Positions 2,191-64,000 of a stretch of DNA of 64,000 nt are shown piece by piece. The DNA is from Eledone cirrhosa. Taxonomy: Eukaryota. The stretch is from the NCBI GenBank assembly GCA_964016885.1, contig OZ024740.1, positions 87,916,001-87,980,000 of the forward strand. Direction: 5' to 3'. Under the pieces are notes generated by a model. That model was not told where the DNA came from and did not search any database. It saw nothing but the letters and a program-made list of their open reading frames with translations. Position numbers and translations under genes: made by a program. Within the stretch, counting starts at the first letter, position 1. The number at the start of each line of letters is the position of its first letter.

Positions 2191-2849
2191 CACTTATATA
2201 CATACATAAATACAAACAAGCACATAGTCAAAGCTAACTCTTGCGAGTACGACTACTTCTTATGCACCCCCTACAACCCCCAAACCCAAACAAAACCCTA
2301 TATTGATGTTCCAGCCGCTGATGTTATTTTAGATGACTCTCCAAACCAAGAAGTTACTTTCATGCCATACCACACAATGTCCAGATACGTTTCCCGTCTG
2401 CTTGAGGTTGATTGGCCTGGCTTGTTTTGGATTTATGGAGAAAGAACGCAGCTCCTTAATTCATAAGTTACAAGTCTCCACGATATCATGAATTTTTGAA
2501 ATTTTTGAAACATTCAAAGGATGAACACTTGCACAAGAGACGACGTAGATTTCCCTTTCTTTACGACATTGAAATCAGTAAGGTAGCCGGTCAAGATGAA
2601 CTCAAAATTATGAGAAACAACAGCTAACATACATAATAGATAGATAGATATGTTTCTTTATTAGCCACAGGAGCACAAAAGAAGGGGACAAATACAAAGG
2701 GGGAAGTTTACATACAATAAAAACGTGTAAAATGTTATCACAAATGCAATTTAAAAAATTAGTCGATTTTCCCCAATAGGGGGAGACAGTTTATATGGGT
2801 AACACATACCCCTGAAAAAATGTGCAACCATCATCTCTAGGAGTACAAA

Positions 2850-5800
2850 GAGTTTGTACCCCTTTTCTCCCTTTCTCTTTTTCCTCAACCTACAGGCTGA
2901 TATAGAGAGAAGGCCCATTCACTCGGGCCATTCTCGCCACTTTCACCCACCTTTCATCAAACTAGCTGGGGTACAGCACCTCTCTCTCCATCCTGATTCT
3001 TCTTCCAAAGTGGTATTTGAAAAAAAGAATCAGTAGTTGGCCGGAGAGAAAGGTGTCTGACCTCAGCCCTTTCAACCTTGTCCACCATAAACCTCTTTCG
3101 CCATAGCTATCACACAAAGGAAAACCGCCTCTCCTTCGATTTTGAAGGAGGGTGGCGGTTTGATCATGACAATGGACTCGGTGGTCAACCGGATTGGTCC
3201 CACCCACGACAATAGTCGTTCTACATAGCCCCACAGGTCGGTAACGCCCGGGCAGTGTATGAATGCGTGCGGGACGGTTTCTTCGTCTCGCACGCACCTC
3301 GGACATATCTTTTTCGAAGAATCCCTGCCCGGGCGCCCATGTCTGTAGAGCTTGTCTCGAACTAGTAGAGCTCCTCGGTAGCACTGCCATGCCAGGGACT
3401 TTTGGAAGTTGTCCATCGGTCCCGAGCGGAAGGTCCTACCGAACAGACTGGCCAGTTCGTCTTCCTCTACGCCTAGAGTTTCACCGAGCACGTCGTCGCA
3501 CTTGCTGCGGATCAACCCTCTATAGAATGACGAAGTGGAGTCACCACTGATCGTCGGGTCCGCCTGCCAGAGGGCTGTGAGCGCCTGAGCGCATTCGATG
3601 TGTCAGTCGTCCATTTTCCTCGGTCTTTGCTTGACCCAGGAATGCAGCTCGGTCAGTGAGACGAGTCGTGGGAAGGCTTACCTCACGAACGGGGCCCACA
3701 CCGGTTGTCCGGTGAGGAATACGTAGAGATGCCGCAGCCTGAGCGCGTGTTTGCGCATCGTCAGCCACGGGGTCCCCCAACCCTCCGTTGGAAGGGTGTT
3801 GGCAGCAGATGGATCTTCTCACCAAAGGAGCCCGCCTCTTCCAAAGGAATTGGAAGAGCGCGCGCTCCCTTTTGGTGAACGTTTTGGCTGGACAAGGCAC
3901 GACGGTCAAGCGGTAGTAGATGGCGGACGCTATAAAAGTGTTCGCCACCTCCGCTCGATCTTTCAAGGATAGTTTGCACTCGGCCCACTTCTGGGTGAAT
4001 GCAAACACCTTGGCCGTCACCTCATTCCAGTTCTTCTCCACCTGGAGGCCCGGACCAAGCGAGACCCCGAGCAGCTTTACGGGTCCTTCCATCCAGCGTC
4101 CGACGACGCCATCGGAAGGCATCGGTCTGCCTCTCCACGATCCGAGTTGCAAACAGATGGACTTGTCCCGGTTCAGCTTCGCTCCTGTGAACCTTTCGTA
4201 TTCCTTCAGTAAGGTGCCGACTTCCTTGATTTGCGAGGTGCTCGACACCACTACTCTCACGTCGTCGGCGTAGGCCGACGCCGCTTTCCGCAGTCCCGGT
4301 TCCAGAGGGATGCCGTGCAATAGCTCCAACTTCCGCAGTAGTGGCTCAAGAGTCAGTACGTACAGAAGGGAGGAGAGAGGGCACCCCTGTCGAATGGATC
4401 GCGTGATATGGAACGGCTCCGAGAGGTAGCCATTCACCTTGACCCTTGAGCAGATGTTGCTGTTGTGCATTGCAGCAATCCAGCCCCTGAACACGGGTCC
4501 CAAGCCTGCCGCCTCGAGCACCGCATCCAGGTAGCGATGGTCAACCCTATCGAAAGCCTTAGATTGATCCAAGTTGATCAGGGCCCCACCGAAGCCGAGT
4601 TTACACCCTACCCTCTTTATGATGTATCGCATGAGGTGGAGGTTGTCGTGTATAGACCTGGTCGGGATTGCGCATGTCTGCGCTTCTCCCACCAGGTTTT
4701 CGACGACAAGCGCCAGCCTCTTTGCCATCACCTTGGCCAAAATCTGTAACTCTGTGTTTAGCAGAGTTATGGGCTGGAAGTTGCCTATGTCATCCCCCTT
4801 ATTCTCGTCCTTCCTGACTAGTGTGACTACGCCCCCGATCACAGAACTGGGAATTCTCCCGTTCTGCTGCCAGTTGCAGTAGACCGCTTCCAGGAGACCG
4901 GAGAATAAGTGCGGCATTGGTACGTAAAATTCGTAGGGTAGATCGTCGAGACCTGGAGATTTGCGTTTGCCGCATTGGCTCAGCGCGTCCCCTATCTCAG
5001 CGGCTGAAATCGGCTTTTCGCAGAATGTCGCCTTGCTGTTCGAGAGTCGCGGTAGGCCATCGAGGTATGGACCGAAATCCATAGCCCCTCCCGGCGCGCC
5101 GCCCCGCCCGAACAGTTGAGCAAAGTGCCACTGAAAGACCGCTCACATCTGCTTCGGCTCATGTATCACGCGTCCGTCTTGGTCCTTCAAAGATCGAATC
5201 GGGGACTTGTTGCCACTTTTTGCCTCCGTCACTCGTGCCCAGCTAACAGCTTTGGCTCCCTCGTTTTCCAGAGCACGTATATTGCTTCTGACAACGCAGC
5301 CCCCGTGCTTTGCGTCGAAGAACTGGTCCAAGGCCGTTCTCGTTGCTAGCACGCTGGCTACGTTGCCACTTCTAATTGCCTCTTCTACTTTATCTACCAG
5401 TTCCTTCTCGGTCCTATTTCTATCTAACGCTAATTCTTTACTAAAAACTAACGAGTCTAATCTAACTGCCCTCTTGAGAGAGTACCACCATCTGTTGTTG
5501 ACAATGGCCCCTGTCAAGTGCTGTTTAACTAAAGTGCTAATTCGTCTACTGTAGGCTTTGCTTTTCGGTAACGACAAGTTCAGCTTCCAGTACCGGGTCC
5601 TTGTCTATGGGTTCTATCAAGGTTGACCATGCAGGTCACTAGTTTGCGATCTGAATAGACAACCATGAACATTTGTGGACAGCTTAACATATCCCTATCC
5701 TTATTTCTAACTAGAACCCTAGCTAGGTACGATCTAGATGTTCCGCTACGATTAGTCCACGTCCACAGTGACACAGTCGGAAAATCTAGTCGATATCCAT

Positions 5801-6326
5801 CGGCCAGGTCAAATCGGCCGATTAACTGTTTGAGGTTGTTACACCCTCCTTTATCGGGACATGCTCCCACATAGTCCCAACGTGCATCTAGGATTTCATT
5901 CCAGTCCGCCACTAAAAGCAAGGAGCGGAACGTTCCCAGAAAAGTCTCTAGACGTTTGAAGAAGTCTGGTAGCGGTGTTCCGGATGGGGCATATGCAACC
6001 ACCAGCCTGAAGGCTCCACCTTCACTACCGTCAACGTCTAGGACCACCAGTCGACCCGCCAGGTCAAGATATACCGTCTGTGTTACGAGGGCCAGGTGTT
6101 TCCGCAGCAAAACGGCAACCCCGCCCCCAACCTCCGGCTGACAGAGGGATGCGTAGATCTCAAAGTCATCGAAGATGGGGGCCAGCTGTTGCTCGCTGTG
6201 GATCCTGTATTCGCAAATGGCTACTACATCCATACTCTGCGACCTGAGGTCGTTTAAGAGTTTGCCCTGTTTCCAGGGCATCCCCAGGCCGCGTACATTC
6301 ACAAATCCAACTCTTATATTGGCCAT
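2850..6326 (-). pseudogene. ORF2 (APE endonuclease + reverse transcriptase + zf-RVT) of Tx1-like copy 1, disrupted
   Basis: ORF pieces 5580-6326 (NVRGL, APE), 5143-5577, 3541-5082 (RT, YADD) and 3072-3515 lie in different frames. Confidence 0.9.
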
Positions 6327-6363
6327 GTTGGTTCTGAAAAGTTAAAAGAAGAGAAGAAAACAC

Positions 6364-7908
6364 TCATCTCTTCGTCTCCCGGGGACCAGGCCGCACGATT
6401 TCTATGGGGGTGTTAGAGGGGTTGTTTGGGTCGGTGGTGGTTTCCGGTGGGGTGGGGACGGAGATGTTTGGTGGAGAGGGGGTTTCTGATGGGGTGGGGG
6501 TGTCTGGGGTGCGTGTGTCTGGGGTGAGGGTGGGGAAACTTTTTAAAAGAACGCGGTTAATGTGTTCAACACAAGGATTACCCACGTCCTTAGGAAAGTT
6601 TTCCTTTAAAGACTTATAGGTGTCCGTAGGGACCCTAATCATCTTTAAATTAGGTTTGTCTACAGAGTTCGAAAAAGTTTTTCCTTCGGTTTTGTTTTTA
6701 CTGTTTATGAATGTGTAATGTTCTTGTGTTGCCGTGGTTTTTGTCTGTTGTTCTTGTGGAAGCTTTCGTTTTGTTGTAGGTGTTTGTGTTTGGAGTGATG
6801 TTGTGGTTTTGTTTTCGGGACGGGGTTTTTTGTTTGTAATGTTTGTGTTGTTTGTGTTGGTGGTTGTATGTTTGTAGTGATGTTTGTTGTTTTTTTGTTC
6901 TTGTGATTTCTTTTCTTCTTTCTTTTCGAACGGAGAGGCTCTCCCTGATCGTCACTTGGTGATGATGTGGGGGCCTCGTCCGTTGTGGTGTCTGTGTTAT
7001 TTGGAAGGGGTATGTTTTGGGGAGCTATTGTGTTTGTGGGTGTTTTTGTAGTGGTTTTAGGTGGAGTGGGGTTGGGTGGGACTGTGCTTGCAGGTTGGTT
7101 TGTTGTTCTTGTTTTGGATATGTTTGCGTGTTGTTGTTGTTGTTGTTGTTGTGGTGGTGGTGGTTGTGTTGTTGTTTTGGGTGTTGGCAGTAGTGCCTCT
7201 TTTTTTTTGTAGTTAACTGAGGACAGTAAGCCCTCAGGTGACCACTGCTTAAACAGTGGTAACATGAAGGCCGCCTCCCCTCAACAGAAATGTTTGTGTA
7301 AAATTCCATCCAGAGGCACACGTTGGGGTATTTTAGCTATCCGTTCTGGCCTCATTTGGACCAGAACTTCTATGCTTGTACCATTGAATGTGCCTCTGGA
7401 GGACTTTCCCACCGAAATGATGGTGTCTTCGTAGAAATCGATGAAGCCAGTTAAAATCCAGCAGACATTTACATTTGGTTCAATGTTCGAAATTTTTATC
7501 TTTTGTGTCCTTTTTCCCATATATGTGGGGAAAAAGGTGTAAAGTGGGGACACAATCGGCGATACAGAATATTTTTGTGCCGTCAATTGGTCTTTCAACA
7601 ACACCGAAATGCTTCCAAAAAGTTTCCCTTTTTGGATGAAGGCAATATCCTTCAAGGAATTCTTCACCACCAGTTCAACGTCGTTTTGGGATAATTGAAC
7701 TGGATTTTTCGACACATTTGAAACCGTCCTAAAAATTACTGTTTTTAGAACAGTTTCTCTGCGTAACTGTTGAGGAGAAGTGATGCTGAAAGCAACATTC
7801 TCACCAAAAGTTACATACTGTTTTGCATCGCTTAACATTTCCCTAGCATTGGAAATGTCAAGGTATGTGAACAGTTCCGTCTTTTGGACGGTTTGAGCAA
7901 AGGAAATC
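6364..7908 (-). pseudogene. ORF1 (gag-like, CX2CX4HX4C zinc knuckle, Pro/Thr/Gln-rich tail) of Tx1-like copy 1
   Basis: Pieces 7281-7908, 7025-7321, 6705-7265 and 6364-6642; homologous to ORF1 of copy 2 (LDISNAR.ML, FRTVSN, KI.NI.PN.N..WIL.GF). Confidence 0.85.
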
Positions 7909-8525
7909 GTTTCACCGAGCATGTCGTCGCACTTGCTGCGGATCAACCCTCTATAGAATGACGAAGTGGAGTCTCCACTGATCGTCGGGTCCGCCTGCCA
8001 GAGGGCTGTGAGCGCCTGAGCACATTCGATGTGCCAGTCGCCCATTTTCCTCGGTCTTTGCTTGACCTAGGACTGCAGCTCGGTCAGCGAGACGAGTCGT
8101 GGGAAGGCTTGCTTCACGAACGGGGCCCACACCAGTTGTCCGGTGAGGAATACGTAGAGATGCCGCAGCCTGAGCGTGTGTTTGCGCATCGTCAGCCACG
8201 GGGTCCCCAGCCCTCCGTTAGAAGGGTGTTGGCAGCAGATGGATCTTCTCACCAAAGGAGCCCGCCTCTTCCAAAGGAATTGGAAGAGCGCGCGCTCCAT
8301 TTTGGTGAGCGTTTTGGCTGGACAAGGCACGACGGTCAAGCGGTAGTAGATGGCGGACGCTATAAAAGTGTTCGCCACCTCCGCTCGATCTTTCAAGTAT
8401 AGTTTGCACTCGGCCCACTTCTGGGTGAGTGCAAACACCTTGGCCGTCACTTCGTTCCAGTTCTTCTCCACCTGGAGGTCCGGACCAAACCAGACCCCGA
8501 GCAGCCTACCGGTCCTTCCGTCCAG
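7909..8525 (-). mobile_element. Internal ORF2 fragment of the copy-1 Tx1 subfamily (direct repeat of 3478-4096)
   Basis: Near-identical to 3478-4096 (gtttcaccgagc...ggtccttcc.tccag); abuts (GATA)n at 8529. Confidence 0.92.
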
Positions 8526-8528
8526 ACA

Positions 8529-8588
8529 TATAGATAGATAGATAGATTGATAGATAGATAGAGAGATAGATAGATAGATAGATAGATA
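8529..8588. repeat. (GATA)n microsatellite between the two Tx1 elements
   Basis: Direct reading; similar tracts at 2636-2650 and 14365-14432. Confidence 0.95.
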
Positions 8589-8779
8589 TATTTCTTTATT
8601 TGCCACAAGGGTGCACAAGAAAAGGGGACAATACAAAGACGTGCCGGGGATTTTACATAGTCGTGTAAAAAATATAAAAACAAACAATTACAACAATCGA
8701 AATCCCCAATAGGGGGGAAGCTTCACAAATGGGTTGTTTAATACCCCGTCGATAGAACAACCCTCAACTCCAGGAGCGT

Positions 8780-11700
8780 GTTGTGCAATTGCTCCTTTCT
8801 TCCTTTTGTTCTCTTCTTCAACCTACAGGCTTATAAACAGAGAAGGCCCAATCACTCGGGCCATTTTCGCTTCATTCACCCACCTTTCAGTAAATTTACT
8901 GGGGTGCAGTGCCTCTCTTTCCACTCTGATTCTCCTTCTAAAGTGATAATTAAAGAAGGGAATCAATTGTTATCCGGAGAGAAAGGCATCTGTCCTCAGT
9001 CCTCTCAATCTCGTCCCCCATATAACTTCTTTCACCATAGCCACCGTACAGAGGAAAACCGCCTCTCTTTCGTTTTTGAAAGAGGCTGGCGGTGTGTTCC
9101 TTACTATGGACTCGGCAGTCAACTGGATTTGTCCCATACGCAACAGCAGTTGTTCTGCATAGTTCCACAGGTCGATTACGCCGGGGCAGTGTACAATTGT
9201 GTGCAGGACTGTTTCAATGTCCTGCTCGCATCTTGGACACGTCCTCTTGGAAGGATCCCTGCCGGGCGTCCGTGCCTGTAGAGCCTGTAGATCTTGTCAC
9301 GAACTGGTCAAGCTCCTCGGTAGCACTGCCAGGCCAGGGACCGCTGGAAGTTGTCCATAGGTCCCGAGCGGAAAGTCCTACCAAACAGATTGGTGAGCTC
9401 ATCGTCTCCGAGCACGTCGTCGCCCTTGTAACGTACAATCCCTCTATAGAATGTCGAAGTGGAGTCTCCACTGATTGCTGCGCCCGCTTGCCAGATGACT
9501 GTGAGCGTCTGAGCGCATTCAATGTACCAGGCCCCCTTCGTTTTCGGTCTTTTCTTGACCCAGGACTGCAGCTCCGCCAGCGAGACGAGCTGTGGAAAAG
9601 CCTGTCTCACAAACGGTGCCCACACCGGTTGGGGGTCGGTGAGGAATACTTGGATATGCCGCAGCCTCAGCGCATGTTTGCGCATCATCAGCCATGGCAT
9701 TCCCAGCCCTCCGTTGGTAGGTTGCTGACAGCAGACTGTTCTCCTCACCTGCGGAGCCTGCTTCTTCCACAGAAACTGGAAGAGCATGCGTTCCATCTTG
9801 GCGAGGTGTTCACGGGGACAAGGCACGACAGTCAAGCGGTAGTAGATGACGGACGCTATGAAAGTGTTAGCCACCTCCGCTCGATCTTTCAAGGAGAGTT
9901 TGCACTCTGCCCACTTCTTGGCCGTGACCTCGCTCCAGTTTTTCTCGACCTGGAGGTCTGGACCGAATCAGACCCCGAGCAATTTCACCGGTCCGTCCGT
10001 CCAGCGTCCAACGACGCTGTCGGACGTCATCGGTTTGCCTCTTCACGTACCGAGTTGCAAACCGACAGACTTGTCCGGGTTGCTCCCGTCAGCGTTTCGT
10101 ATTCTTTCAGTAAGTTGCCGATCACCCCGATTTCCGAGGTGCTCGACACCATTACCGTCACGTCGTCGGCATAAGCCGAAGCCGTTTTGCGCAGTCCCGG
10201 TTCTAGATGGATGCCCTGCAACAGCTCTAATTTCCGCAGTAGTGGCTCTAGAGTCAATACATACAGAATGGAGGAGAGAGGGCACCCCTGTCGAATGGAA
10301 CGCGTGATTGCGAACGGCTCCGATAGGTAGCCGTTCACCTTGACTCTCGAGCAGATGCTGGTGTGCATCGCCTCCTCGATCCAGCCTCTGAACACGGGAC
10401 CGAAACTGGCCGCCTTGAGAACCGCTTCCAAGTATCGATGATCGACCCTATCGAATGCCTTAGACTGATCCAAATTGATCAGAGCCCCACCGAAGCCGGG
10501 TTTACTACCCACCCTCTCTATGATGTATCGCATGAGGTGGAGGCTGTCGTGTATGGACCTGGTCGGGATTGCACACGTTTGCGCTTTCCCTACCAGGTTC
10601 TCGACGAAAAGCGCCAACCTCGTCGCTAGCACCTTGGCCAAAATCTTTAACTCTGTGTTGAGCAGAGTTATGGGCCTGAAGTTGTTAATTTCGTCCCCCT
10701 TGTTCTCGTCTTTCCTGATCAGCGTTACTACGCCCTTGCCTGCAGAACTGGGAATTCTCCCGTTCTGCTGCCAATTGCAGTAGACGGCTTCGAGGACGCC
10801 AGAGAACAAGTCCGACATGCCTATGTAAAACTCATAGGGTAGACCATCTAGACCGGGTGACTTGCGTTTCCCGCAGCGGCCCAGAGCGTCCCGTATCTCA
10901 GTGTCCGTGATTGGTCTATCGCAGAACTCGACGTCCGTGTTCGAGAGACGCGGCAGGCCGTGGAGGTATGAACTAAAGTCCATTGCCCCGTTCGGCTCAC
11001 CGTCGTTCTGCTCAAACAGTCGCGCAAAGTGCTGCTGAAAGGCCGCGCACATTTGCTTAGGGTCAAGTAGCACGCGTCCGTTTTGATCTTTCAAAGACCG
11101 AATCGTGGACTTGTTGCCGCTTTTTGCCTCCGCCACTCGGGCCCAGCTGACAGCTTTCGCTCCTTCGTTTCCTAGAGCACGTGTTGTGCTTCTGACCACG
11201 CAGCCTTCGTGTTTCGCATCGAAGAACTGGTCCAGTGACGTTCTCGACGCTCACACTCTAGCCGCGTTGCCTCTTCTAAGTGCCTCATCTACATTGGCTA
11301 CTAGTTCTCTTTCTATTCTGTTTTTCTCTAAGGCTAACTCTCTGCTATACCCTATCGATTCTATTCTAATTGCTTTCTTGAGAGAGTACCACCATCTATT
11401 GTTGACGATGGCTCCCGTTAACTGTTGCTTGACTAGTCTACATATCCGTTCCCTGTAAGCTTAACGTGCCAGCAACGACACGTTCAGCTTCCAGTATCCG
11501 GGTCCCTGTCTATGTATTCTATCACGGTTGACTAAGCAGACGACTAACTTGTGATTTGAATAGGCAACCAGGTGCATTCGTGGACAGCTTAACATCTCCC
11601 TTTCTCTAATGAATAACCTATCTAAATACGATCTAGATGTCCCACTGCGGTTTGCCCACGTCCACTGTGGTGCAGTCGGGAAATCCAGTCGATACCTATC

Positions 11701-12220
11701 GGCCAGTTGGAATTGACCGATTAAAGTTGCACCCCGCTCTACTGGGACATGCTCCCACACAGTCCCATCGTGCATCTAGGATACCATTCCAGTCCCCCAC
11801 TAAAAGTAAGGAGCGAGACGTTCCCAGAAAAGACTCTAGACGCTTAAAGATGTCTGGCCGTGATTGCGATTGCCCGGTCGGGGCATAAACGGCCACCAGT
11901 CTGAAGGCTCAACCTCCAATACTGTTCACGTCTAGGACTACCAGTCTACCCTCCGGGTCCAAGTGTACTTGCTGTACTTCGACGTCCAGGTTCTTCCGAA
12001 ACATGACAGCCACTCCACCTCCACCTCCTGGCTCACAGAGAGATGCGTAGATCTCAAAGTCGTCGAAGATGGGGGTTAGTTGCTGCTTGTTGTCGATCCT
12101 GGACTCGGTGATGGCTATCACATCCATACTGTGTGACCTAAGGTCTTTTAAAAGTTGGCCCTGTTTCCAGGGCATCCCTAGGCCACGCATATTCACGGTT
12201 CCAACTCGTAAACTAGCCAT
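8780..12220 (-). pseudogene. ORF2 (APE + RT) of Tx1-like copy 2, disrupted
   Basis: Pieces 11909-12220, 11696-11896, 11461-11775, 10027-11199 and 9308-9892. Confidence 0.9.
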
Positions 12221-12324
12221 GTTGGTGAAGAAAAGTTGGAGAAAAAGGACGAAAAGTGCACTTACCTTTTCGTTTCCTGGAGATCGGGTTGTTCAATCCC
12301 CATTTGGGTGCTGGATGGGGTGTT

Positions 12325-14062
12325 AAGTGGGGTGGGGAAACATTTTAATAGGACGCGGTTGATGGGTTTGTGGCAGGGGTTGCCCACGTCCTGTGAAAAT
12401 TTATTTTTTTAGGTTATTATAGGTTTCCATAGAAACCCTTATAAGTTTAAGGTGTGGAGACGATTCTGACTTGACGAAACTTTTGCCCTCCGTCTCCACC
12501 TTGGGGTTTTGGGAGATGACCTCCATCAAACTCTTGTTGTTTGTGTTGATGTATGCGTATTGTTGTTTGTGTTTTTGTTGTGTTATTTTAGTTTGTTGTT
12601 CGTCCGGAAGTTTTCTTTTTATGGTGGGTGCTTGTGTTTGGGGTGATGTTGGTGCTGGTTTTGCTGATAGGGGGATGTTTGACTGTGGTGTTGTTTGTGT
12701 TGTTGTTTGTGTCTGTGGTTGTGTGTTGGTGTTGGTGATTGGAGTTTTGGGGGTTTTGTGGTGTGTCTTTTTTTGTTTTTTAGATTTCCGCGGTTCTCCC
12801 TCTTCACTTAAAGAAGGAGAAGCAACTTCATCCGTCGATGAATAATCATCGTCAGGTGTGTGGGGTAGGGGTATGTTGTGTGGTGGTGGTGTTTCGGTGT
12901 GTGTGTTTGTGGTAGTGTTTGATGGAGTGGGGCTGTGTTCTTCAGGGTGTTGTCTCTGTTTTTTCTGTTGTTGTTGGTTGAGTGTCTGTTTGTTTAGGTG
13001 TGGTTGCTCGTTTCATCTGTTGTTGTACTTGTGGTGGTGGTGGGGGTTGTTTTGGTGTTGGTGTTGGTAATAGTGTTTTTTTAATGATGTTGTTGTTGTG
13101 TGTTTGTGGACAAGAGGCTTTTAGGTGTGCTGTGCTACCACAGCGAAAGCAATGACATTTTCGTCCGTCTACCGAAATGTTTATTTTGTTGTTATTATCG
13201 ATGACGATTCTTTCGGGTATTTTGGATATTCTCTCCGGTTTCATTTACAACAGAATCTCCAAATCAGTACCCGCCCACCTTTGTCGAATAGATTTTCGTA
13301 TCGAAAGAATCATATCAGTTTCTGGCTCTACGAAGCCAGCCAAGATCCACCAGATGTTAATGTTTGGGGGTATGTTTTTTATTTCTATTTTTTTGTGTCC
13401 TTTTTCCCATGTATGTAGGGAAAAAGGTGAATGCTTTGACACCATTGGTGTCACAGAATGTTTTTAGGCGAGTGCCTCGCTTTTAAACAGTACGGAAACA
13501 CTTCCGCTGGAGAAACTCGATATTTGCTAGAATTTCCTTGAAAGTAGCTTCTATATCTGCTTGGCTAACAAATGTCGGCTTTCTTGTGGAATTTGACACA
13601 GTCCTAAAGGTGACTGATCTGCGAATTGTGTCTTCCTTTATTTCAAGGGGTGAGTTAATTCTAAACCCATCTTTTTCTTCGAAAGTTACAAATGTTCTCC
13701 CTTGCTGGAGCATATCTCTTGCGTTGGAGATATCAAGATTTATAAAATCTTGTTTTTTGTTCACTGTTTCAGCGAAAGACATTTCCTTTTTTTGTGTGGT
13801 GTTGCTGTTGTTGTTGTTGTTATCGTTGTTAGCCTCGGTGTTGGAAATCTCAGTTCCTTGTCGAGGTGAAACATTATGTGTCAATGTATCTGTAGAGTTG
13901 TTGATGTCTTTTTCATCTGTATGTATGTTAATGGGTTTAATTCCTGTGTTTTCCTGTGTGTTATTGTTATTTTTCTCCGCTTCGACGGTAGAAATTTTAA
14001 AATCTTCAAGTGGTAAATATTTTTTTCTCTTTGTTGACAGTCGTATCTATGGCGACGTCCAT
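12325..14062 (-). pseudogene. ORF1 of Tx1-like copy 2, disrupted
   Basis: Pieces 13483-13884, 13245-13454 and 12942-13244 (zinc knuckle); candidate ATG at 14062 lies in a shifted frame. Confidence 0.8.
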
Positions 14063-14393
14063 AGTAGCAGAAGCAGATATAACGTTAATATTGCCTCTTT
14101 CTCTCTCTTTTCTCTATTGACGTTCTCCAGCGTTCTTGTGTTGCTCAAGTTATTTAGTTTGTAAAATCTGATATTTTAAAACAATTTTTAAAATAAAATT
14201 TTCGCCCCTACAGGGGGGAAAAATGGGATTGCCACCCAGCTGACAATTCAGCTTGGGGGTTAATCTACAAAATGTTATGTTTTTTCAAACAATTAGTTCG
14301 GTTTTTTGCATAGAAATTAACAAAAAAGCTTACCGGCGATGTTCCACGCGTCAGACAGAAAGAGAGATAGATATATTTAAGAGAGATAGATAG

Positions 14394-14424
<31 letters not shown>

Positions 14425-14436
14425 GATAGATACATA

Positions 14437-14732
14437 TACCCGTGATTTTAGGGGCTCTGGGATATGTCACTAACGGCCACAGTACAAATCTTGAGAAGCT
14501 GGGCTTCAAAGAATCAGAAAGAACACGACTAGTTAGGAAGTTACAAGTTCAGTCTATTAACGACATTTCTGCATGTAATAACTGCATATACACTTATATA
14601 GATACAAAACAAATGCACGTGCACACATATAACCCAAAACATACAGATCCACACATACAATAACATCAATACCTGCACACACACATGCATGCAGATATAT
14701 TTACCTAGCTGATGTCTAAATTCCAATGAAAG
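14437..14732 (+). mobile_element. 5'-truncated R4/Dong-like element (RLE C-terminus + 3' UTR)
   Basis: Encodes PVILGALGYVTNGHSTNLEKLGF...RKLQVQSI; homologous to 20574-22344; flanked by tacata/TACA repeats. Confidence 0.85.
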
Positions 14733-14747
14733 AATACATACATACAT

Positions 14748-15376
14748 ATGCATAATATGAAAGAGTACTGGTGGAATGTTCCAGTAAAAACCCCAATAAA
14801 ATACAGGTATAACAGACCAGATATAATGATATGGGACAGGGAAAAGAAGGCATGCACAGTAGTGGAAGTTAGCTGCCGAGCAAAATAACATCAAAGATTA
14901 GCGAAAAGGAGAATATTTATGCAGAACTAATGAAAAATATGCAGATACTCCACCCTGAGTATACCTTCAGATTTATACCTGTGATTATTGGGGCACTGGG
15001 ATATGTTAGCAACTGCCACAATACCAATCTTGAGAAGCTGGACTTCACAGAAACAGAAAGAACACAACTAGGTAGGAAATTACAAGTACAATCCATTAAT
15101 GGAACAGTAAAAATATGTAAAACATTCCCAAATCTTTGCATCTAATAACTGCATATACACATGTACAGATACAAAGTGTATGCACATGCACACATACAAC
15201 TCAAAACATACACATTCACACATACAATAACATCCATACATGCACACACATGCATGCATGCAGATACATCTACCTAGTTGATGTGTAAATTCCAATGAGA
15301 GAGTCTTGTAACTATGTTAGAAACCGACTCTCTCTCTATTGGCAAAAATTTGTGAAATTATAAAAACCAGAAGAAC
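14748..15376 (+). mobile_element. 5'-truncated R4/Dong-like element (RLE domain + 3' UTR)
   Basis: EYWWNVPV...NRPDIMIWDREKKACTVVE...FIPVIIGALG; (TACA)n on both sides (14735-14747, 15377-15520). Confidence 0.9.
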
Positions 15377-20573: not shown

Positions 20574-22344
20574 GTTCTTCTGGTTTTATAATTTCACAAA
20601 GTTTTATCAATAGAGAGGGAGTAGGTTTCTAACGTAGACACAAGACTCTCTCATTGGAATTTACACAACATCAACTAGCTAGATATATATGCATGCATCT
20701 GTAGATATGGATGTTATTGTATGTGTGGAAGTGTATGTTTTGAGTTGTATGTGTGCATGTGTATATGCTTTGCATCTGTACATGTGTATATGCAGTTATT
20801 AGATGCAAAATATTTGGAATGTTTTACATATTTTTACTGTTCCATTGTACTTGTAATTTCCTAACTAGTTTGTTCTTTCTGTTCCTGTGAAGCCTAGCTT
20901 CTCAAGATTTGTACTGAGGCAGTTACTAACATACCCCAGTTCCCCAATAATCACAGGCATAAATCTAGAGTTGTAATAAGGGTGGAGTATCTGCAGATTT
21001 CTCATCAGTTCTGCATAAATATTCTCCTTTTCACTAATCTTTGATATTATATTGGCATCTGCTGGGCAGCTAATTTCCACCACTGTGCATGCTTTCTTCT
21101 CCCTGTCCCATATCATAATATCTGGTCTGTTATGCCTGCATTTTACTGGGGTTTGTACTGGAACATTCCACCAGTACTCTTTCATATTATGTACATGGAT
21201 ATCTTCCACATTGATTTTAATGTGTTTATTATCGGGGCTATCTTTTTTACGAACTGCATTGTACAGTGTTTTGGCCACTACATCATGCCTCATAGGTAGA
21301 TAGTACCGTGATGACATCTTTGGACAGCTGCTGATGACATGGGTGATATCCTCGATGTTAGTCCTGCAGACTCTGCACTTGTTATCACATCTAGGTGTTT
21401 TGCCTGCATCCCTATCTCTTTTGTGAATCAGGTATTTCGTGTTAATCTCTTGTTCTTGGATTGCAAAAGCGTATCCTTCAAAGTGGGAGCCAATATAGCA
21501 GTTGTTGGTCCAAGATAGACTACTTTCCTTATCTATATTACTCTCACTCTGGAGCTTCCTGCCAACATACCCATGCATGATTTTTTGCTGATAAGTATGC
21601 AATTTTTCATCCATGGATTCACTGTGATACTGCTGAGCGACTTCCCTGTGTGTGAGTTTTTGATCATCACACTGGGAATATCTCTCGAGGAGTTCCTTCT
21701 CATCTCTCATGATCTTATCTGTTTCATGCAGATAGACTTGCTCGAGAAACGGGCTCCTACGCTTCGCGGTTCGTAGATGTTGTCGGAGAGATATGATGCG
21801 ACATTCAAATGTTGTCTAGACTGATGTTAGGCCTCTGCCTCTCTGCTTATGTTTCAAGTAAAGGCGGTCTATGTCACTGTTGATGTGGAAGTTTCCGGTG
21901 TTATTTAGTATTTTTCGAGTTTCAACATCAACTGTTCGGATTTCGTCTATCGTCCAATTGAGTATTCCAAACGTTGGTGTTAGGGCAGGCACAGCAAACA
22001 CATTGTGAGCCACTGTTTTGTTTTGCGCAGAGAGTTCCGATTACCAGATCTTTCTTAATCGGGTGTAGTATTCCCTGGTTACGCGTTCTTTATTACAGAT
22101 ACCATTATAGGATATGTTCTCATCTATCCCCAGGTATCTGTAGCAGTCCTCATAAGATATCGGTGAAACAGTTAGGCCATTGATGACAATGTTGCTAGAT
22201 TGGGTTGTTGTTTTTCCTCGCTTTACAGTCATGTATGAGCATTTATCTTGTCCAAACTCCATTCCTATATCCTTTGAGAACGTTGTAACCAGGTCAAGAT
22301 TTGTCTTTATCCCATCCATGTTCTTGGCATAGAGTTTCAGATCG
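20574..22344 (-). mobile_element. 5'-truncated R4/Dong-clade RLE non-LTR retrotransposon
   Basis: DLKLYAK...YRYLG, RLYL...GRGL, CRVC...EDITHVISSC, RHD, NRPDI...VEISCP, PVIIG; (TGTA)n at both ends (20525-20573, 22345-22425). Confidence 0.92.
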
Positions 22345-29609: not shown

Positions 29610-29869
29610 GGGGATTCCTTTCTTCGTTTCTGTGCCTTTCCTTTCTTCTATCCTACGCCATTTTGTTTCTTTGTGTGTGTTGTGTGCTCAGTTTGCGCAT
29701 GCGCCACATCCGGGTGTCTGTGTGTGTTTGTGTTCATTTATCTATTTGTTTATTTATTTATTTATTTATTGTTGGTTGGTTGTTTGTTCTATGTGTGTGT
29801 GTGTTTTCATTTTGTCCTGTGTGTGTTTTCATTTTGTGTGTGTTTTCATTTTGTCCTTAATTGTAAGTT

Positions 29870-30749
29870 GGAGGTACCAGGTCTTTCTACTATCTTAATA
29901 TTGAGATTATGTTTATTTAGGGCCCTTCTAAATTTGTAGGCTAGTTCGCCTCTAGGGGTTGTATTGATGAACATTACACTCTGGTATTTATTGCTATCAT
30001 ACCATGAGTTTATTCTATTGGCCTTGTTCCTAGTTCTTTCTATTCTATTCCAAAATTTGCTCCTATACAAGGGGCAGGTCCCATTTATGTCATTATTTAC
30101 CATTTTTTCCCATTTGGTTCTGGCTCCTTTATACACTCTGATTCTATCTCTCTGATTGTAGCCAGAGAACTGCATACGGTGGATGAAGTGTTGTATGTGT
30201 CTCTCTAGTTCTTCGGGGTTGCACATGCGGGACACATTTTTCATCACCCGTACCAAATCCGCAATCAGTATGTTGATTTTGGTATGGTCCGAAATGGCCG
30301 AGTTTCGGTGGATCAGATGTTTGGAAGTCATGGGTTTGGCATAATGGGAATGGAGGATTTGTTTTTGGTTGTTAATGGTATCTAACCAGAGCTCTGTGTC
30401 TAGTACAGGTAATCGATGGTTGGGGTGTCTACTTGGGTAGTCTATAGTAACTCTAATGCTCTGGTGGATGGAGTTTGCTATTTTCTGGATGCTTTCCATT
30501 GTGTTTTTCTCTAGTTCCTGACTGTTCTTAAGTGGGGGTGTCTTAACTACGATGATTATATCATCTACGTAGCGGGAGTACATTATCAGGGTTAAGCTGT
30601 CTTCTAATTGTTCATTAAGTTTTTGTTTAAGTCTACTGTCCCACCATACCATGAATAAGTTAGCTATGTCGCCTGCAATGCTAACACCAATGGCTGCTCC
30701 TTCCTCTTGGGCATATGTTTTACCATTAAATTTGAACATATGTTCCTTA
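29870..30749 (-). pseudogene. Penelope-like reverse transcriptase, C-terminal part and thumb (endonuclease deleted)
   Basis: From KEHMFKFNGKTYAQEEGAAIG to IVERPGT; the first 47 aa of the ORF-track protein come from the inverted segment. Confidence 0.9.
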
Positions 30750-30989
30750 AGGGGAACGAATAAATGAACACTGGCGAGACCTCCAAGATAATAAAGAATC
30801 ATCTGTGCTCTACCAACATGCTTAGATAGAACACAGGGGTAGATTAGAGAGCATAGAAATAAAAATAGAATCCACACACAGAAAAGACGCAATGTTTAGG
30901 CAAATTACAGAGGCAGTAAGCATAAAAGAATTAAAACCAAAATTAAATAGAAAATATGAGTGGAACAGCAACATCACAACTTACAATTA
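30750..30989 (+). pseudogene. C-terminal half of the PLE GIY-YIG endonuclease within the inverted pLTR
   Basis: Plus frame GERINEHWRDLQDNKESSVLYQHA*IEH...DAMFRQITEAVSIKELKPKLNRKYEWN, matching the R..EH / H / RQI.EA..I / LN.K.EW pattern of PLE endonucleases. Confidence 0.85.
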
Positions 30990-38207: not shown

Positions 38208-38600
38208 TTGTAGGATTCATGGAAGAAGTGTCATGGGAGTAGTGAATTCACAAGCGGTCCCCCAAAATCCCGCATGTATATCTCGAACGAGGGGAAAACA
38301 CGTCCTGTTTGCTGCAGATTCTCCACAGACGCAGGGACAGAAACGACCCGAAGCCGCCGGTTACCGGAACAGACACCTCTTGGATTTTCACCAGAGCCCC
38401 TTTTGCCGGGATGCAGCCCTAGTACCGCTGGGTGCCAGACTAATCCGCCTTAGGTGGCCCTACCAGGAACCGGAGTTCCCGACGGCATAGCTCTGACACT
38501 ACCCGTTGCCACCGTCCTGCCACGTTGAGGAGGGGTTGGACTTTAGGTTGGAATTACTCCCGCAGTAGTCCCGCTCTTTAGACGAAGGAAGGAATTAAGG

Positions 38601-41546
38601 GTGGCGTGCTGGAACGTCCGAACACTTCGTGACGACGGTGTCCAGGCACTTACAATGAAGGCTCTGCACAGGTACTGCGTTAGTTTCGCTTGCCTTTCAG
38701 AAGTTCGACTTCCCAATGTTGGTCATCTTCCGATCAAAGTTCCTGGCGAGGAAATCTCCTACCACTTGTACCATAGTGGCGTGACTGACAACAGTGGCGT
38801 TCACGGGGTCGCTGTAGCGCTCAGCCCCGAAGGATCAGCGGCTCTGCTGGCGTGGCAGCCGATCTCACACCGACTCGTGCTGGTTCGATTGAAGGGTAAA
38901 AATCTCCAACGTCAGCGTAGTTGCCGTCTACGCTCCCACAGTCAATGCGGACAAGGCGGACAAGACGCAGTTCTATGCCGATCTCCAAACAACCGTGGAT
39001 GGCGTCCCCTGCCGTGATGTTCTCATTGTTGCTGGGGACTGGAATGCGCGGAAGGGGCCGGCTGATGATACAACACGGCATATTCTAGGACGCTTCGCCC
39101 TAGGCGTACACTCTGACAATGGTGAACGGCTCGTGTCCTTCGCGGATGCCAATCATCTTATCGTCATCAACACCCGGTTCCACCATCCTTGGCGTCACCT
39201 CGTCATGTGGCGATCCAATGACGGAAGAACGGCCAATCAGATTGACTACATCCTGGTCAGATCTCGGTGGGCCAGCTCAGTGATGGACTCGCGTGCTAAT
39301 CGGGGGGGGGGGGGGGGGGGGCTTATACGGGAAGTGAGCATGGGTCAGACCATAGTCTTGTTCGAGCAACCCTTCGTCTGCGGCTGCAGGCGAAGCCTCC
39401 TCCCAACCGCCAGAAAAGGATCGACATCTCGCGACTCAAGCTCGATGCTGGAAATTCTTTCCGGCTAGAGCTGCGAAACCGATTCAAAATGCTGAGTAAC
39501 GAAGTGGAACAGCAACCGGAGCAGGAGTGGAACGCGCTCAGGGCGGCGACGGTTGAGGTGGCCAGGGAGCATCTCGGGTCGACCAAAAGACGCGATCGGG
39601 ACTGGATCTCGGGCGGCACTCTTGAACTCGCGAAGAGGGCGAGAGTGGCCCGACTGGAGAGTGCACCCAATCTTCGAGATCTCCGACGTCGCACATCTCG
39701 GGCTATTCGGACCGATCGGAATGCACACTGGCGCGAATTTTCGGGGCAGACGGAGAGGGCAGCAGCCAGTGGTGACTCGCGCAAGCTCTACCAACTGGTG
39801 AAGCGGGCCAGCCGAAACAGTACGGGTATCAGCGAGACGATCCGTGATCGGAACGGGGCGGTCATTACCAGTCTTAATGACCGGCTAGTCCGATGGCGGG
39901 ACCATTTCTCTTAGCTGCTCAACCACCCGCCACCACCCAGGCCAACCTACGTGCAGCCTTCCGGAGAAGAATACAGGTGCAGCACTGCCCCTCCAACGGT
40001 CGAGGAGGTACGTAGTGTCCTGACACATCTCCGGAACAACAAGGCGCCGGGCGAAGATGGCGTTCCAGCTGAGGTCTACAAGACCCAGCCTGATGTCTTC
40101 GCAGCTTGGCTCCATCGAGTTTTCTCCTCGGTGTGGGCGATGGAGCGGTTCCCTGGTGACTGGAGCGAGCAACTCTCCTACCCTTCTTCAAAAAAGGCGA
40201 CAGGAAACTGTGTTCCAACTACAGGGGTATCAGTGTAATTGACGTTACTGCCAAAACCTTCGCAATTCTTCTGCTGAAGAGGTTCCAGGCCATCCGTGCT
40301 GTCCGTACCTGTCCTTCTCAGGGCGGATTCCGTCCGGGGAGGGGGTGCGTTGATCAAATCTTCATTCTCCGGCGTGTCCTGGAACAACGGTGGGCACATC
40401 AACAGCCTACCGTCCTCTGCTTCATCGACTTTGCAGCTGGCTTCGACTCGGTAGATCGGGAAGCCCCATGGCGTATAATGCAGGCGGACGACATCCCAGT
40501 GAAGCTGCTTCGTCTCATACAAGGCTACTACCGGTCGACTCGGGCCCGAGTGAGGGTCTCTGGTGGGGAGACGGAGTCGTTCGATGTTGGGACCGGTGTT
40601 CGGCAGGGGTGTGCGCTATGGCCAACTCTCTTTAACTACGCCATTGACTACACTCTCAACACAGCACTCCGGGATTACCCGGACGTAGAGGTCGGGAGAG
40701 GGGTCGTGGTGACGGACTTGGCCTACGCGGATGACATCATGCTGATGGGCGCTAACGGGACAGATGTACAAAGTGCTCTCGAAAGGGTGCACACTGTAGC
40801 CGCCGCTGTTGGTCTACGAATCAATGCCGCCAAGTCGGAGGTCTTGGCAGCCGATATCTCTCGAGGGCGTGGACCTGGAGGATGTGGAGTCCTTCGTTTA
40901 CCTGGGCTCAACAGTGGTTCCAAAGGGACAGGGCGCAGCTGAAGTCAAGCGTCGCATAGGTGCTGCCAGATCCGCTTTTGGGCGCCTCCAGCGGTGTCTG
41001 TGGAACAGAAGAGAGATCACCTCGGCGACCAAAGAGCGAATCTACCAGGCCCTCGTTCGCACTATCCTCCTCTATGGCTGTGAAACATGGCCTATGAGGG
41101 TAGTCGATCAACGAGGGCTGGAGGTCTTCGACAATGACTGGCTCCACCGTATCTTTCGCTGCCGACGCGTTGATCGGGTACCTACCACCAGTCTTCGTCT
41201 TCGCCTGAATCTTCGACCCATTACTTCAGTGCTTTTGCAACGGCGCTTGAGATGGTTTGATTACGCAGCCCGGCACCCTGAGGGTGAGCTGATCCGCGAT
41301 GTTCTCCTCCCACCTCCACTCCCTAACTGGCGCAAGCGCGTTGGCGGGAAGCTGAAGACCTGGGCAACGACGATCAAAGAGGACCTCTCCGAACTCTCAG
41401 GTCCGCAAGTGGTCGGGCTGTGCCGATGGAACCGTGACTGGCTCGCTATCTCCAGTGACCTAGCCCGGGACCGTCGTGCGTGGGCTGCCATGGTTCGGGA
41501 TGCCGTCAGGGCAAGGGAAGAAGCCGGCTCAACCCGTCCAGGGTGA
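38601..41546 (+). pseudogene. RTE ORF (APE endonuclease + RT), frameshifted
   Basis: Pieces 38601-39017, 38995-39468, 39489-39914, 39951-40238, 40478-40942 and 40809-41546; 20-nt G run at 39302-39321. Confidence 0.92.
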
Positions 41547-42947
41547 ATGTCGACGCAAGTACAAGTACAAGTAAAGCTATCACAGCATGTACCTTGTCGT
41601 TCTCAGTCTGACTATTATCTGTTAAAAATATATCATTGATTGATATCCTTCAAGCTATTCGGTTCAGAATTCAAAACCTAGGAGAACAAGTCTACAACAT
41701 TCCATTTGTAAAATGGAATGACTTTGCATGGGTTGCTTGTGAACCTTTGTATATCACAAAAGTTAATATTCATAAAAAAATAATCATAACTCCTAATTAT
41801 TTCTACTAACTTAACAAAATTACTTTGAAGTTACAACAGTTTATTACCTTTAAAGCTAAATATCGTTGTGGTATATATCACATCTTCATGCAAACAAACA
41901 AGAGACCTTAAACATTTACAATAATACACAGTGGACTTGGAAAGTATTAGCAAATACGACTATTCAAATTGTTGGAGTCTTAGGGGCACCGTATTGGCAT
42001 ACGGCGTTTCCTGGGCATTTTAAAGATTGGCGGAGCCCATCTCTCTCCAGGTCTGAATACAGCTCATTCATTTCAGTGATAGAGAGAAGGTGATAGAGAG
42101 GAAATGAGAAAGAGATGTAGAAGAAGAATCGACCCCAGTACTAGACTGGTACTTTTTTTATCGACCTCGGAAAGATGAAAAGTAAACTTGAGCTCAGTGG
42201 GATTTGAACTCTGATAATCAGAACAAATACCGCAAAAGTATTCTCTCCGACATTCTAACCACTCTGCCAATTCGCCGTCATTCAAATTATTAACAACGCT
42301 GTATTTCTTGATTATTGTACTTGCTTCTGTTATTGGATTGTAATTGTTGTTTACTCCCAGCTAAGGCCTGCCTGAGGAAATCTTATGGTTAAAGGTGTAT
42401 CAGCTGTAATCATTCCATTTTTTGTATATCTAGGATAAATCACTTAACCCGACCCCCTTTATATGATGTGTAATTTGAAGGAAATTTGTTTTTATTTCTA
42501 GCACGTTGAGGGATCATGGATATATGTTTTATTTGACAGAAATTAGAGATTTAGAAAACCTTTGGAGTACAGTTATTATAAAATCAATAAATCATTTTAT
42601 TTCAATTTTGTTTTGTTTGCTACTGTGTATTATAAATGTATTGGGATCATGTTGAAGGTGTTTTCACCGCTCCATCTTCAGTTTCTGTTTGGTCAGTCAG
42701 AGGTAAATGTTTATCACGCGAATGTTCTGATTCTTTACGCTAACTTGTCAATGAACAATCCCTGGTGACATACATGACAAGTACGGTATGTTTACATGGA
42801 ATTTTGTGTGAAACTGCAAAGGCGGCTTCTTATTGCCTTCCTTTAGCTGTTTGTTTCTTTAAATATATACTTTAGGAGAGGGGGAGGGAGAGAAAAAGAA
42901 AGAGATAGATAGACCGAGAGAAAGAAGAGAAATATATATATATGTAT

Positions 42948-62677: not shown

Positions 62678-62835
<158 letters not shown>

Positions 62836-64000
62836 CTGTCTCTCTATCGATCAATCAATCTATTTATCGGTTTATTTGTCTGCCTGTCTATCAATCTCTC
62901 TCTCGCCCCCCACCCTTTCTCTCTCTCTCTATATATATATATGAAAATGCTCAAGACCCCGACGGCAGAGCTCAAGCTGTTTCGACATCTATTTCTGGAC
63001 AAATATATTTATGTTTTGTTATAATCCTTTATTATTCATTCATTCCTATATTATTCTCAACTCAGTAAAATATGCTCCACTAGGGAAAAGGTAAGGAGCC
63101 AATCGTGAGACCGAACCAAGGAAACAATGTTTTCATTAGTCTTTCTATTGCTGATAATGTCTGCCGGTCGCCTCTCTTGGTGAAATGAACAACTTACAAT
63201 AAAGTATTTTGCTAAAGAGCAGAACACACTGACTGGTCCATGAATCGAACAGTCCAGCACCTTAAACAATAGGCTCCGTGTCTTTACTAAGGAGGTTTAA
63301 TAAGACCGTAAGGTGTCCTTTGCTTCTTTCATCAGTTGGCTTTATTTAAACTTAAAGCTACTCCAGACTGCATTGTCTGTGTCAGGTTTAACCTGGAACT
63401 GCACAACAACAACAACAACAACAACAATAACAACACATCATCATCAACAATAACAATGCCATTAAATAGAATAATGTAATTATGAATATCATGCAATTTC
63501 TTTTGTAGAAAATTAGCTGGAAATAATAAAAGAAATGGAAGTGGCAGAGAAAAAAAAGAAGCCTAAATTAGTTCCTATCAGATATTTTATGTTTCTGAGG
63601 TCAACATTCTATTATGCGGGAATTGTTGGTTTAATATCCTCACTGTATGAAGTAAATAATGGTTTCTGATTTAGGCACAAGGCCAACAATTTGGGTGAAG
63701 AGGAAAGTCGATTAAATCGACCGCATCGCATTACTGGTACTTTATTTTATCAACCCCGACGGGATTTGAACTCAGAATGTAAAGGACCGTAACTCAATGC
63801 CTCAAAACATGTTATCCGACGCTCTACCAATTCTGCCAATTCACCACCCTTGGAATAAATAATGGTTTCTTATATAGGCAGAAGGCTAGCAATTCCAATT
63901 CTTTTGGGGGGGGGGGGGGGGTAGTCGATTAAATCGACCCCAGTGCGTGACTGGTACTTTATTTTATCGACCCCATAAGGATGAAACGCAAAGATAACCT

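What the first reader, a model, noticed from the sequence alone, without database searches (positions are those of the whole stretch)
2636..14432. Two diverged Tx1-like LINE subfamilies stacked head-to-tail in (GATA)n: apparent GATA/TATC microsatellite-specific retrotransposon
Seen: both 3' ends read AATAAAGAAA(C/T)A(TATC)n with no poly(A), and both 5' junctions (8526, 14357) also abut GATA repeats, each through a cagaca motif. The copies differ clearly (ORF1 only partly alignable) yet share orientation and target. Known: several Tx1-clade elements are sequence-specific for simple repeats or small-RNA genes (Kibi, Koshi, Keno, Mutsu, Dewa). I do not recall a (GATA)n-specific one. Inference: an APE endonuclease that recognises (GATA)n, with each tail renewing the target for the next insertion.
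Basis: partly seen in the sequence, partly recalled or inferred. Interest (0 to 1): 0.72.

Follow-up and report, generated by a model that had tools for sequence, protein, structure and literature searches.

The report
Jumping gene that targets GATA repeats
This is a stack of three broken copies of a very common jumping gene that sits, in one direction and at one step of the repeat, inside GATA short repeats across this likely octopus genome, likely because its enzyme cuts that repeat; repeat-seeking relatives are known, and I found no paper on this particular target.

Summary
The target claim holds; the anatomy needs correcting. The region holds three broken pieces, not two: B (near full length), C (617-bp 5'-truncated A-type fragment, the real source of the 8526 junction) and A (5' end lost). 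'cagaca' is B's own head, not a junction motif. Genome-wide, 12,994 of 16,792 exact 3' ends are followed by NN-TATCT, only 3 by an A-run. Duplications that include unique breaks in the repeat (15 of 55, shuffled mean 1.4) show TATC is duplicated target DNA, not a tail. ORF2 groups with Xenopus Tx1. Sister families use (ATT)n and a 72-bp repeat, the latter with an unchanged endonuclease hairpin. Endonuclease recognition is inferred, not shown. It works like Kibi/Koshi with a target I found in none of seven searches (Repbase unchecked). The scan has already reported this family several times, in this and another genome.

The parts
2636..2650 (-). (TATC)3 target tract at the 3' junction of copy A; unique DNA beyond
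2651..2892 (-). 3' UTR of copy A; AATAAA at 2662-2657, then GAAACA, no poly(A)
2893..6326 (-). ORF2 of copy A (APE endonuclease, RT, zf-RVT), broken: 4 frame pieces, 4 stops
   Evidence: Pfam; tblastn against an intact relative
6367..7908 (-). ORF1 remnant of copy A; the N-terminal ~95 codons and the 5' UTR are missing
7909..8525 (-). Piece C: 5'-truncated A-type fragment (late RT/thumb region), 3' part lost, fused to A's ORF1 with at most ~4 nt (GAAA) shared
   Evidence: 95.5% to 3478-4096; 96.6% to the nearest other copy; ORF1-side parent sequence in L150/L042
8526..8588 (-). (TATC)~15 tract between the 3' end of B and the 5' truncation point of C
   Evidence: TRF 8530-8588
8589..8825 (-). 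3' UTR of copy B; AATAAA at 8600-8595, then GAAATA, no poly(A)
8826..12220 (-). ORF2 of copy B, broken: 4 frame pieces, 7 stops; 93.8% nt identical to L143, whose two frames are open
12265..14046 (-). ORF1 of copy B, broken; the open relative (611 aa) has one C-X2-C-X4-H-X4-C knuckle
   Evidence: Pfam zf-CCHC weak (E 0.03) on the ORF1 of L120, none on L143
14047..14363 (-). 5' UTR of B, opening with the repeat-like head TCTTTC-TGTCTGACGCG (source of 'cagaca')
   Evidence: 30 of 30 full-length copies start here
14364..14436 (-). (TATC)n target tract at the 5' junction of B
   Evidence: TRF 14353-14436

Best explanation
These are three dead copies of an abundant Tx1-clade LINE family that sits in one orientation and one phase inside (TATC)n/(GATA)n repeats with short target-site duplications, likely because its endonuclease nicks the GATA strand at AGAT^AGAT and the RNA's 3' end likely pairs with the freed end to start reverse transcription. 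Shown: position, strand, phase, duplications of about 7-17 bp that start at the TATCT after the 3' end, absence of poly(A), stacking of different subfamilies. Inferred: the nick at a T^A step (two sister families fix this position unambiguously; the T at +3 stays when the repeat is absent); transcription running past AATAAA into the repeat so that poly(A) is added downstream and never copied; the duplication leaving TATC on both sides, which later copies re-use. A single TATCT can suffice as a landing site.
For: 3' ends: 12,994 of 16,792 exact ends followed by NN-TATCT, 3 by an A-run. 5' junctions of truncated copies: 38 of 55 TATC on the same strand, 0 of 55 opposite strand, RTE control 0 of 15 (Fisher p 8e-7), background 1.2-2.0%; 9 of 13 in a position-ordered sample; full-length 11 of 12 and 30 of 30 (by eye, includes the window copy). 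Duplications that carry a unique departure from the repeat: 15 of 55 against shuffled mean 1.4, max 5 of 500 shuffles. L119 landed in (TA)n and has no TATCT at its 3' end, so TATC is not RNA-made. Lineage-specific flanks: TATC copies 0 of 55 on ATT or the 72-bp repeat; ATT family 13 of 13 heads after (ATT)n; 72-bp family 20 of 20 heads and 30 of 30 ends in that repeat. Open ORF2s keep the residues aligned with human L1 E43, D145, D205, H230 (L1 numbering recalled). Endonuclease swaps change target in SART1/TRAS1 (PMC7265360, introduction).
Against: 17 of 55 truncated copies fail the TATC test (several are TGTC or TA variants or look secondarily deleted; some, e.g. L058, L117, L127, have plain flanks); 3,798 of 16,792 ends lack exact NN-TATCT, of which 354 are the 72-bp sister. 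40 of 55 have no informative duplication. The endonuclease beta-hairpin thought to read the target is identical (T-NRSGTSRS) in TATC subfamily A and the 72-bp family, so the switch does not map to that loop. No biochemical or RNA evidence.
Confidence: 0.75

Rival explanations
1. The endonuclease is only loosely T^A-preferring, and the choice of repeat comes mostly from base pairing between target-derived bases carried on the RNA (3' read-through, and a repeat-like 5' head) and the nicked DNA.
For: No poly(A) at junctions and AATAAA only 6-7 nt before the repeat; all three sister groups share NN then a T^A-type junction; identical hairpin in TATC-A and 72-bp families with 80% identical endonucleases; occasional extra TATC unit before the duplication (L115, L121). 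PMC1950540 (passages) names RNA-target pairing as a possible extra requirement.
Against: 5'-truncated copies, which lack the head, still have TATC at the 5' side, and single TATCT sites are used (L011, L044); strays in (TA)n were not seen to found families in the samples read; the ATT family's endonuclease is only ~60% identical with a different loop; endonuclease swaps redirect SART1/TRAS1.
Confidence: 0.2
2. TATC is only a tail that the element writes, insertion is random, and stacks arise by tandem duplication or template jumping.
For: 18 of 55 truncated copies lie within 160 bp of another element's 3' end. The C-A join could be one event: A's matching segment has C as its best match (95.5% against 94.8% for the next).
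Against: 24 of 37 non-stacked truncated copies still have TATC 5'; informative duplications; copies in other sequence have no TATC tail; A and B are 78% identical, so not duplicates; C is closer to other copies (96.6%) than to A.
Confidence: 0.03
3. Copies insert anywhere and survive preferentially in microsatellite-rich, low-recombination DNA (as proposed for Drosophila Waldo-A/B in PMC3812793).
For: The genome is very rich in microsatellites.
Against: Fixed strand (0 of 55 opposite) and fixed phase; the RTE of the same genome shows 0 of 15; sisters show other, equally fixed flanks.
Confidence: 0.02

Closest known systems
Kibi (TC)n and Koshi (TTC)n of teleosts; crocodilian Tx1 families on (TTCC)n/(TTTC)n (PMC4494074 passages; PMC3812793 passages)
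   Same: Tx1-clade APE LINEs that insert into a pyrimidine-rich microsatellite.
Xenopus laevis Tx1L (YTX2_XENLA, P0313), inserting in the piggyBac-derived Tx1D
   Same: Same domain order; 313.7 bits against 167.4 for human L1 ORF2; its clade is sister to this lineage at 97/90 support. The 72-bp sister family also lands inside a TTAA-flanked inverted-repeat element.
   Different: 30% identity; target is a transposon, not a microsatellite.
SART1/TRAS1 (telomeric repeats) and Waldo/Mino (ACAY, AC) of the R1 clade
   Same: Strand- and phase-specific insertion in short tandem repeats; SART inserts at a T^A step (PMC7265360).
   Different: Different clade; they end in poly(A), which this family lacks at the junction.

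Membership tests
Tx1 clade non-LTR retrotransposon | ORF2 with N-terminal APE endonuclease, RT and C-terminal cysteine motif | tested here: met
   Pfam Exo_endo_phos, RVT_1, zf-RVT on open copies L143 and L120 and on window pieces
Tx1 clade non-LTR retrotransposon | Separate ORF1 with zinc knuckle | tested here: met
   611-aa ORF1 with one CCHC motif read from the sequence; Pfam support weak, E 0.03 below cut-off, on L120 only
Tx1 clade non-LTR retrotransposon | RT phylogeny groups with Tx1 rather than L1 | tested here: met
   Sister to the clade holding Xenopus Tx1 ORF2, 97/90; 313.7 vs 167.4 bits. Caveat: no named L1-clade row was in the tree (one search returned none), and the outgroup branches are long
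Microsatellite-specific Tx1 (Kibi/Koshi type) | Same repeat on flanks in more than 20% of copies (criterion in PMC4494074) | tested here: met
   77% of 3' ends; 69% of truncated 5' junctions
Microsatellite-specific Tx1 (Kibi/Koshi type) | Branches with Kibi/Koshi and the Tx1-1_Crp group | not testable with these tools
   No named Kibi/Koshi sequence was returned; Repbase not available; supplement not readable
Kibi or Koshi families proper | Target (TC)n or (TTC)n | tested here: not met
   Target is (TATC)n
Site-specific APE retrotransposon | Endonuclease cleaves the target specifically in vitro | not testable with these tools
   needs a nicking assay
L1 clade (mammalian type) | poly(A) at the 3' junction and TTTT/AA targets | tested here: not met
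   3 of 16,792 ends have an A-run

The most novel reading that the evidence does not exclude
Target choice in this lineage is set mainly by target bases carried on the element's own RNA rather than by the endonuclease, so a copy that lands in a new repeat can found a family aimed at that repeat; this would explain a TATC-to-72-bp switch with an unchanged recognition hairpin, and would make a compact APE-type LINE re-aimable through its RNA ends.
Probability: 0.17. Interest if true: 0.75.

Novelty: new member of a known kind. Interest (0 to 1): 0.43.

Why it matters
It adds (GATA)n to the known microsatellite targets of Tx1 elements, with well over ten thousand copy ends in one genome, which means that many GATA microsatellites there (a class used as genetic markers) are flanked by repeated DNA. 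More usefully, close sisters with open reading frames aim at three different repeats (TATC, ATT, a 72-bp unit; ORF2 78-85% identical between TATC and 72-bp families), a ready-made set for asking how APE retrotransposons choose and change targets, which the papers read here call unclear.

Tried and rejected
cagaca as a recognition motif: rejected. A 7-nt microhomology at the C-A join, my first reading: reduced to about 4 nt once the ORF1-side parent was seen. Metagenome relatives were 24-43% identical and served only as tree rows; their flanks were not analysed. Cluster look-up gave no useful names; the Atlas gave only generic RT/APE clusters; a search for a named L1 reference returned none. 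AU test did not reject TATC families as one clade (p 0.153) although branch support nests the 72-bp family inside them, so the direction TATC to 72-bp is likely, not shown. 5' junction calls for older ATT copies were unreliable because references were too distant; only head-anchored counts are used, and almost no truncated ATT or 72-bp copies were sampled. No structure was predicted. Literature: searches showed no GATA-specific Tx1; Kojima and Fujiwara 2004 and the 2025 Nature survey of site-specific retrotransposons were not held; the supplement of PMC4494074, which lists targets, could not be read; Repbase/Dfam entries were not checked and may already hold this family.

Full report
Observation. 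The window lies on C1 of a 3.0-Gb animal genome; I take it for an octopus from size and repeat content, which is a guess. On the minus strand 2636-14436 reads: (TATC)n, copy B (14363-8589), (TATC)~15, piece C (8525-7909), copy A (7908-2651), (TATC)3. A and B are 77.6% identical over 3.85 kb and about 63% in ORF1. Both long copies are broken by frameshifts and stops. The 'cagaca' motif is B's own head at 14357 (30 of 30 full-length copies) and a chance match at 8526 (1 of 55 other junctions).

Family size and 3' ends. The exact end GTGGCWAATAAAGAAA occurs 16,792 times (reversed control 7). 12,994 are followed by two bases and TATCT, 354 by two bases and ACTCT, a sister family, 3 by an A-run. 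So the 3' junction has a fixed phase and no poly(A).

The decisive test. I took the 40 best matches to each 3' end (chosen without regard to flanks), fetched more DNA where needed and followed each copy to its 5' junction. Of 80, 13 were unresolved and dropped, 12 were full length, 55 truncated. TATC lay directly 5' of 38 of 55 truncated and 11 of 12 full-length copies, on the element's sense strand; the opposite strand scored 0 of 55. Among truncated copies with no other element end within 160 bp, 24 of 37. An RTE family from the same window gave 0 of 15 resolved junctions (15 of 30 unresolved), random positions 1.2-2.0%. A position-ordered sample gave 9 of 13 resolved (17 of 30 unresolved, 12 of them the 72-bp sister). 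Against: 17 of 55 failed; some are TGTC or TA variants or secondary deletions, a few have plain flanks.

Target, not tail. In 15 of 55 truncated copies the 5' flank ends with the same string that follows the 3' end, including a unique break in the repeat (7-17 bp, with up to 4 bases of microhomology); shuffled pairs gave 1.4 on average, never above 5 in 500. L011 and L044 used a single TATCT; L119 landed in (TA)n and shows no TATCT. Duplication leaves target on both sides, which explains the stacks: 18 of 55 lie right behind another element's end. A and B are too different to be duplicates; whether C and A were two insertions with a later deletion or one template-switch event is open.

Identity. 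Copies with open frames exist (L143: ORF1 611 aa, ORF2 1,096 aa with a short internal gap and an early stop; L120: ORF2 1,145 aa) with APE, RT and zf-RVT domains. The L120 protein scores 313.7 bits against Xenopus Tx1 ORF2 (found) and 167.4 against human L1 ORF2. In an RT tree the lineage, with unnamed ~40%-identical relatives, is sister to the clade that holds Xenopus Tx1 (97/90); no named L1, Kibi or Koshi row was available.

Sister families. Following a lead from earlier notes I confirmed an (ATT)n family (30 of 30 ends in ATT-type repeats; 13 of 13 recognised heads after ATT; ORF2 about 65% identical), and found independently a very young family in a 72-bp repeat inside a TTAA-flanked inverted-repeat element (30 of 30 ends, 20 of 20 heads), which earlier notes also describe. 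TATC copies never abut those targets (0 of 55). The 72-bp family nests among TATC subfamilies with strong branch support, but TATC monophyly is not rejected (p-AU 0.153). Its endonuclease hairpin equals that of TATC subfamily A.

Mechanism. Shown: strand, phase, duplication, no poly(A). Inferred: in the two sisters the element ends in C and the target begins with A after a genomic T, which puts the bottom-strand nick at T^A; in TATC copies the third base after GAAA is T in 142 of 146 ends, and in 12 of 12 ends that lack ATCT once the three A-run ends are set aside, consistent with a nick at AGAT^AGAT, though T-rich targets weaken this. With AATAAA 6-7 bases from the junction, cleavage would fall inside the repeat, so the RNA likely carries UAUC units that pair with the primer (by analogy with R1Bm read-through, recalled, not read here). 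How much specificity comes from the enzyme and how much from this pairing is the open question; I put about 0.75 on enzyme recognition aided by pairing and 0.2 on pairing-led choice.

Comparison and novelty. PMC4494074 (passages) and PMC3812793 (passages) list Tx1 targets (TC)n, (TTC)n, (TTCC)n/(TTTC)n, U2 and Tx1D, and R1/R4-type targets ACAY, AC and TAA; neither main text gives GATA as a target. PMC13282606 (first third and passages) counts 13 recently active L1-Tx1 families in Octopus vulgaris and has no occurrence of 'target'. PMC1950540 and PMC1919474 (passages) and PMC7265360 (abstract, introduction) give the endonuclease background. Seven searches showed no GATA-specific Tx1, but Repbase, the 2004 survey and one supplement were out of reach. 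It works like Kibi/Koshi, meets the Tx1 tests that could be run, and is neither Kibi nor Koshi. Verdict: real, a new member of a known kind, already noted several times by this scan; interest 0.43, carried mostly by the three-target sister set.

Noticed in passing
L313:586-6497 and G000 C1 4.229-4.259 Mb (L290-L295, L311-L314): Very young sister family (copies 99%+ identical, most sampled full length with a 1,152-codon open ORF2; 354 exact ends) at one base of a 72-bp repeat inside a TTAA-flanked inverted-repeat element; six head to tail here. Parallels Xenopus Tx1L in Tx1D.
   Followed up: partly
L322:1017-7024; L391-L410: Sister family in (ATT)n with at least two different 5' halves on a shared ORF2.
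   Followed up: partly
L108, L150: Mosaic copies with A-like and B-like parts, suggesting recombination or template switching between TATC subfamilies.
   Followed up: no
L058:~966 (+): A 70%-identical relative ends AATAAATGAAA-CCATCCCGCC, in neither TATC, ATT nor the 72-bp repeat: possibly a fourth target.
   Followed up: no
window 38547-41575 (+): Broken RTE-type LINE with a (CAAGTA)n tail; 281 first-look candidates; used as control.
   Followed up: yes
window 20865-21815 (-), with related pieces at 14435-14500 and 14974-15039: 316-codon frame with CCHC and PD-(D/E)xK-like motifs, likely the restriction-like endonuclease end of an R2/R4/Hero-type element (motif reading recalled; no Pfam hit).
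   Followed up: no
window 29846-30895 (-): 349-codon frame with a weak RT hit, likely a Penelope-like fragment.
   Followed up: no
window 62679-62868: A 190-bp (TCTA)n tract with no match to this family beside it: an unoccupied target.
   Followed up: no
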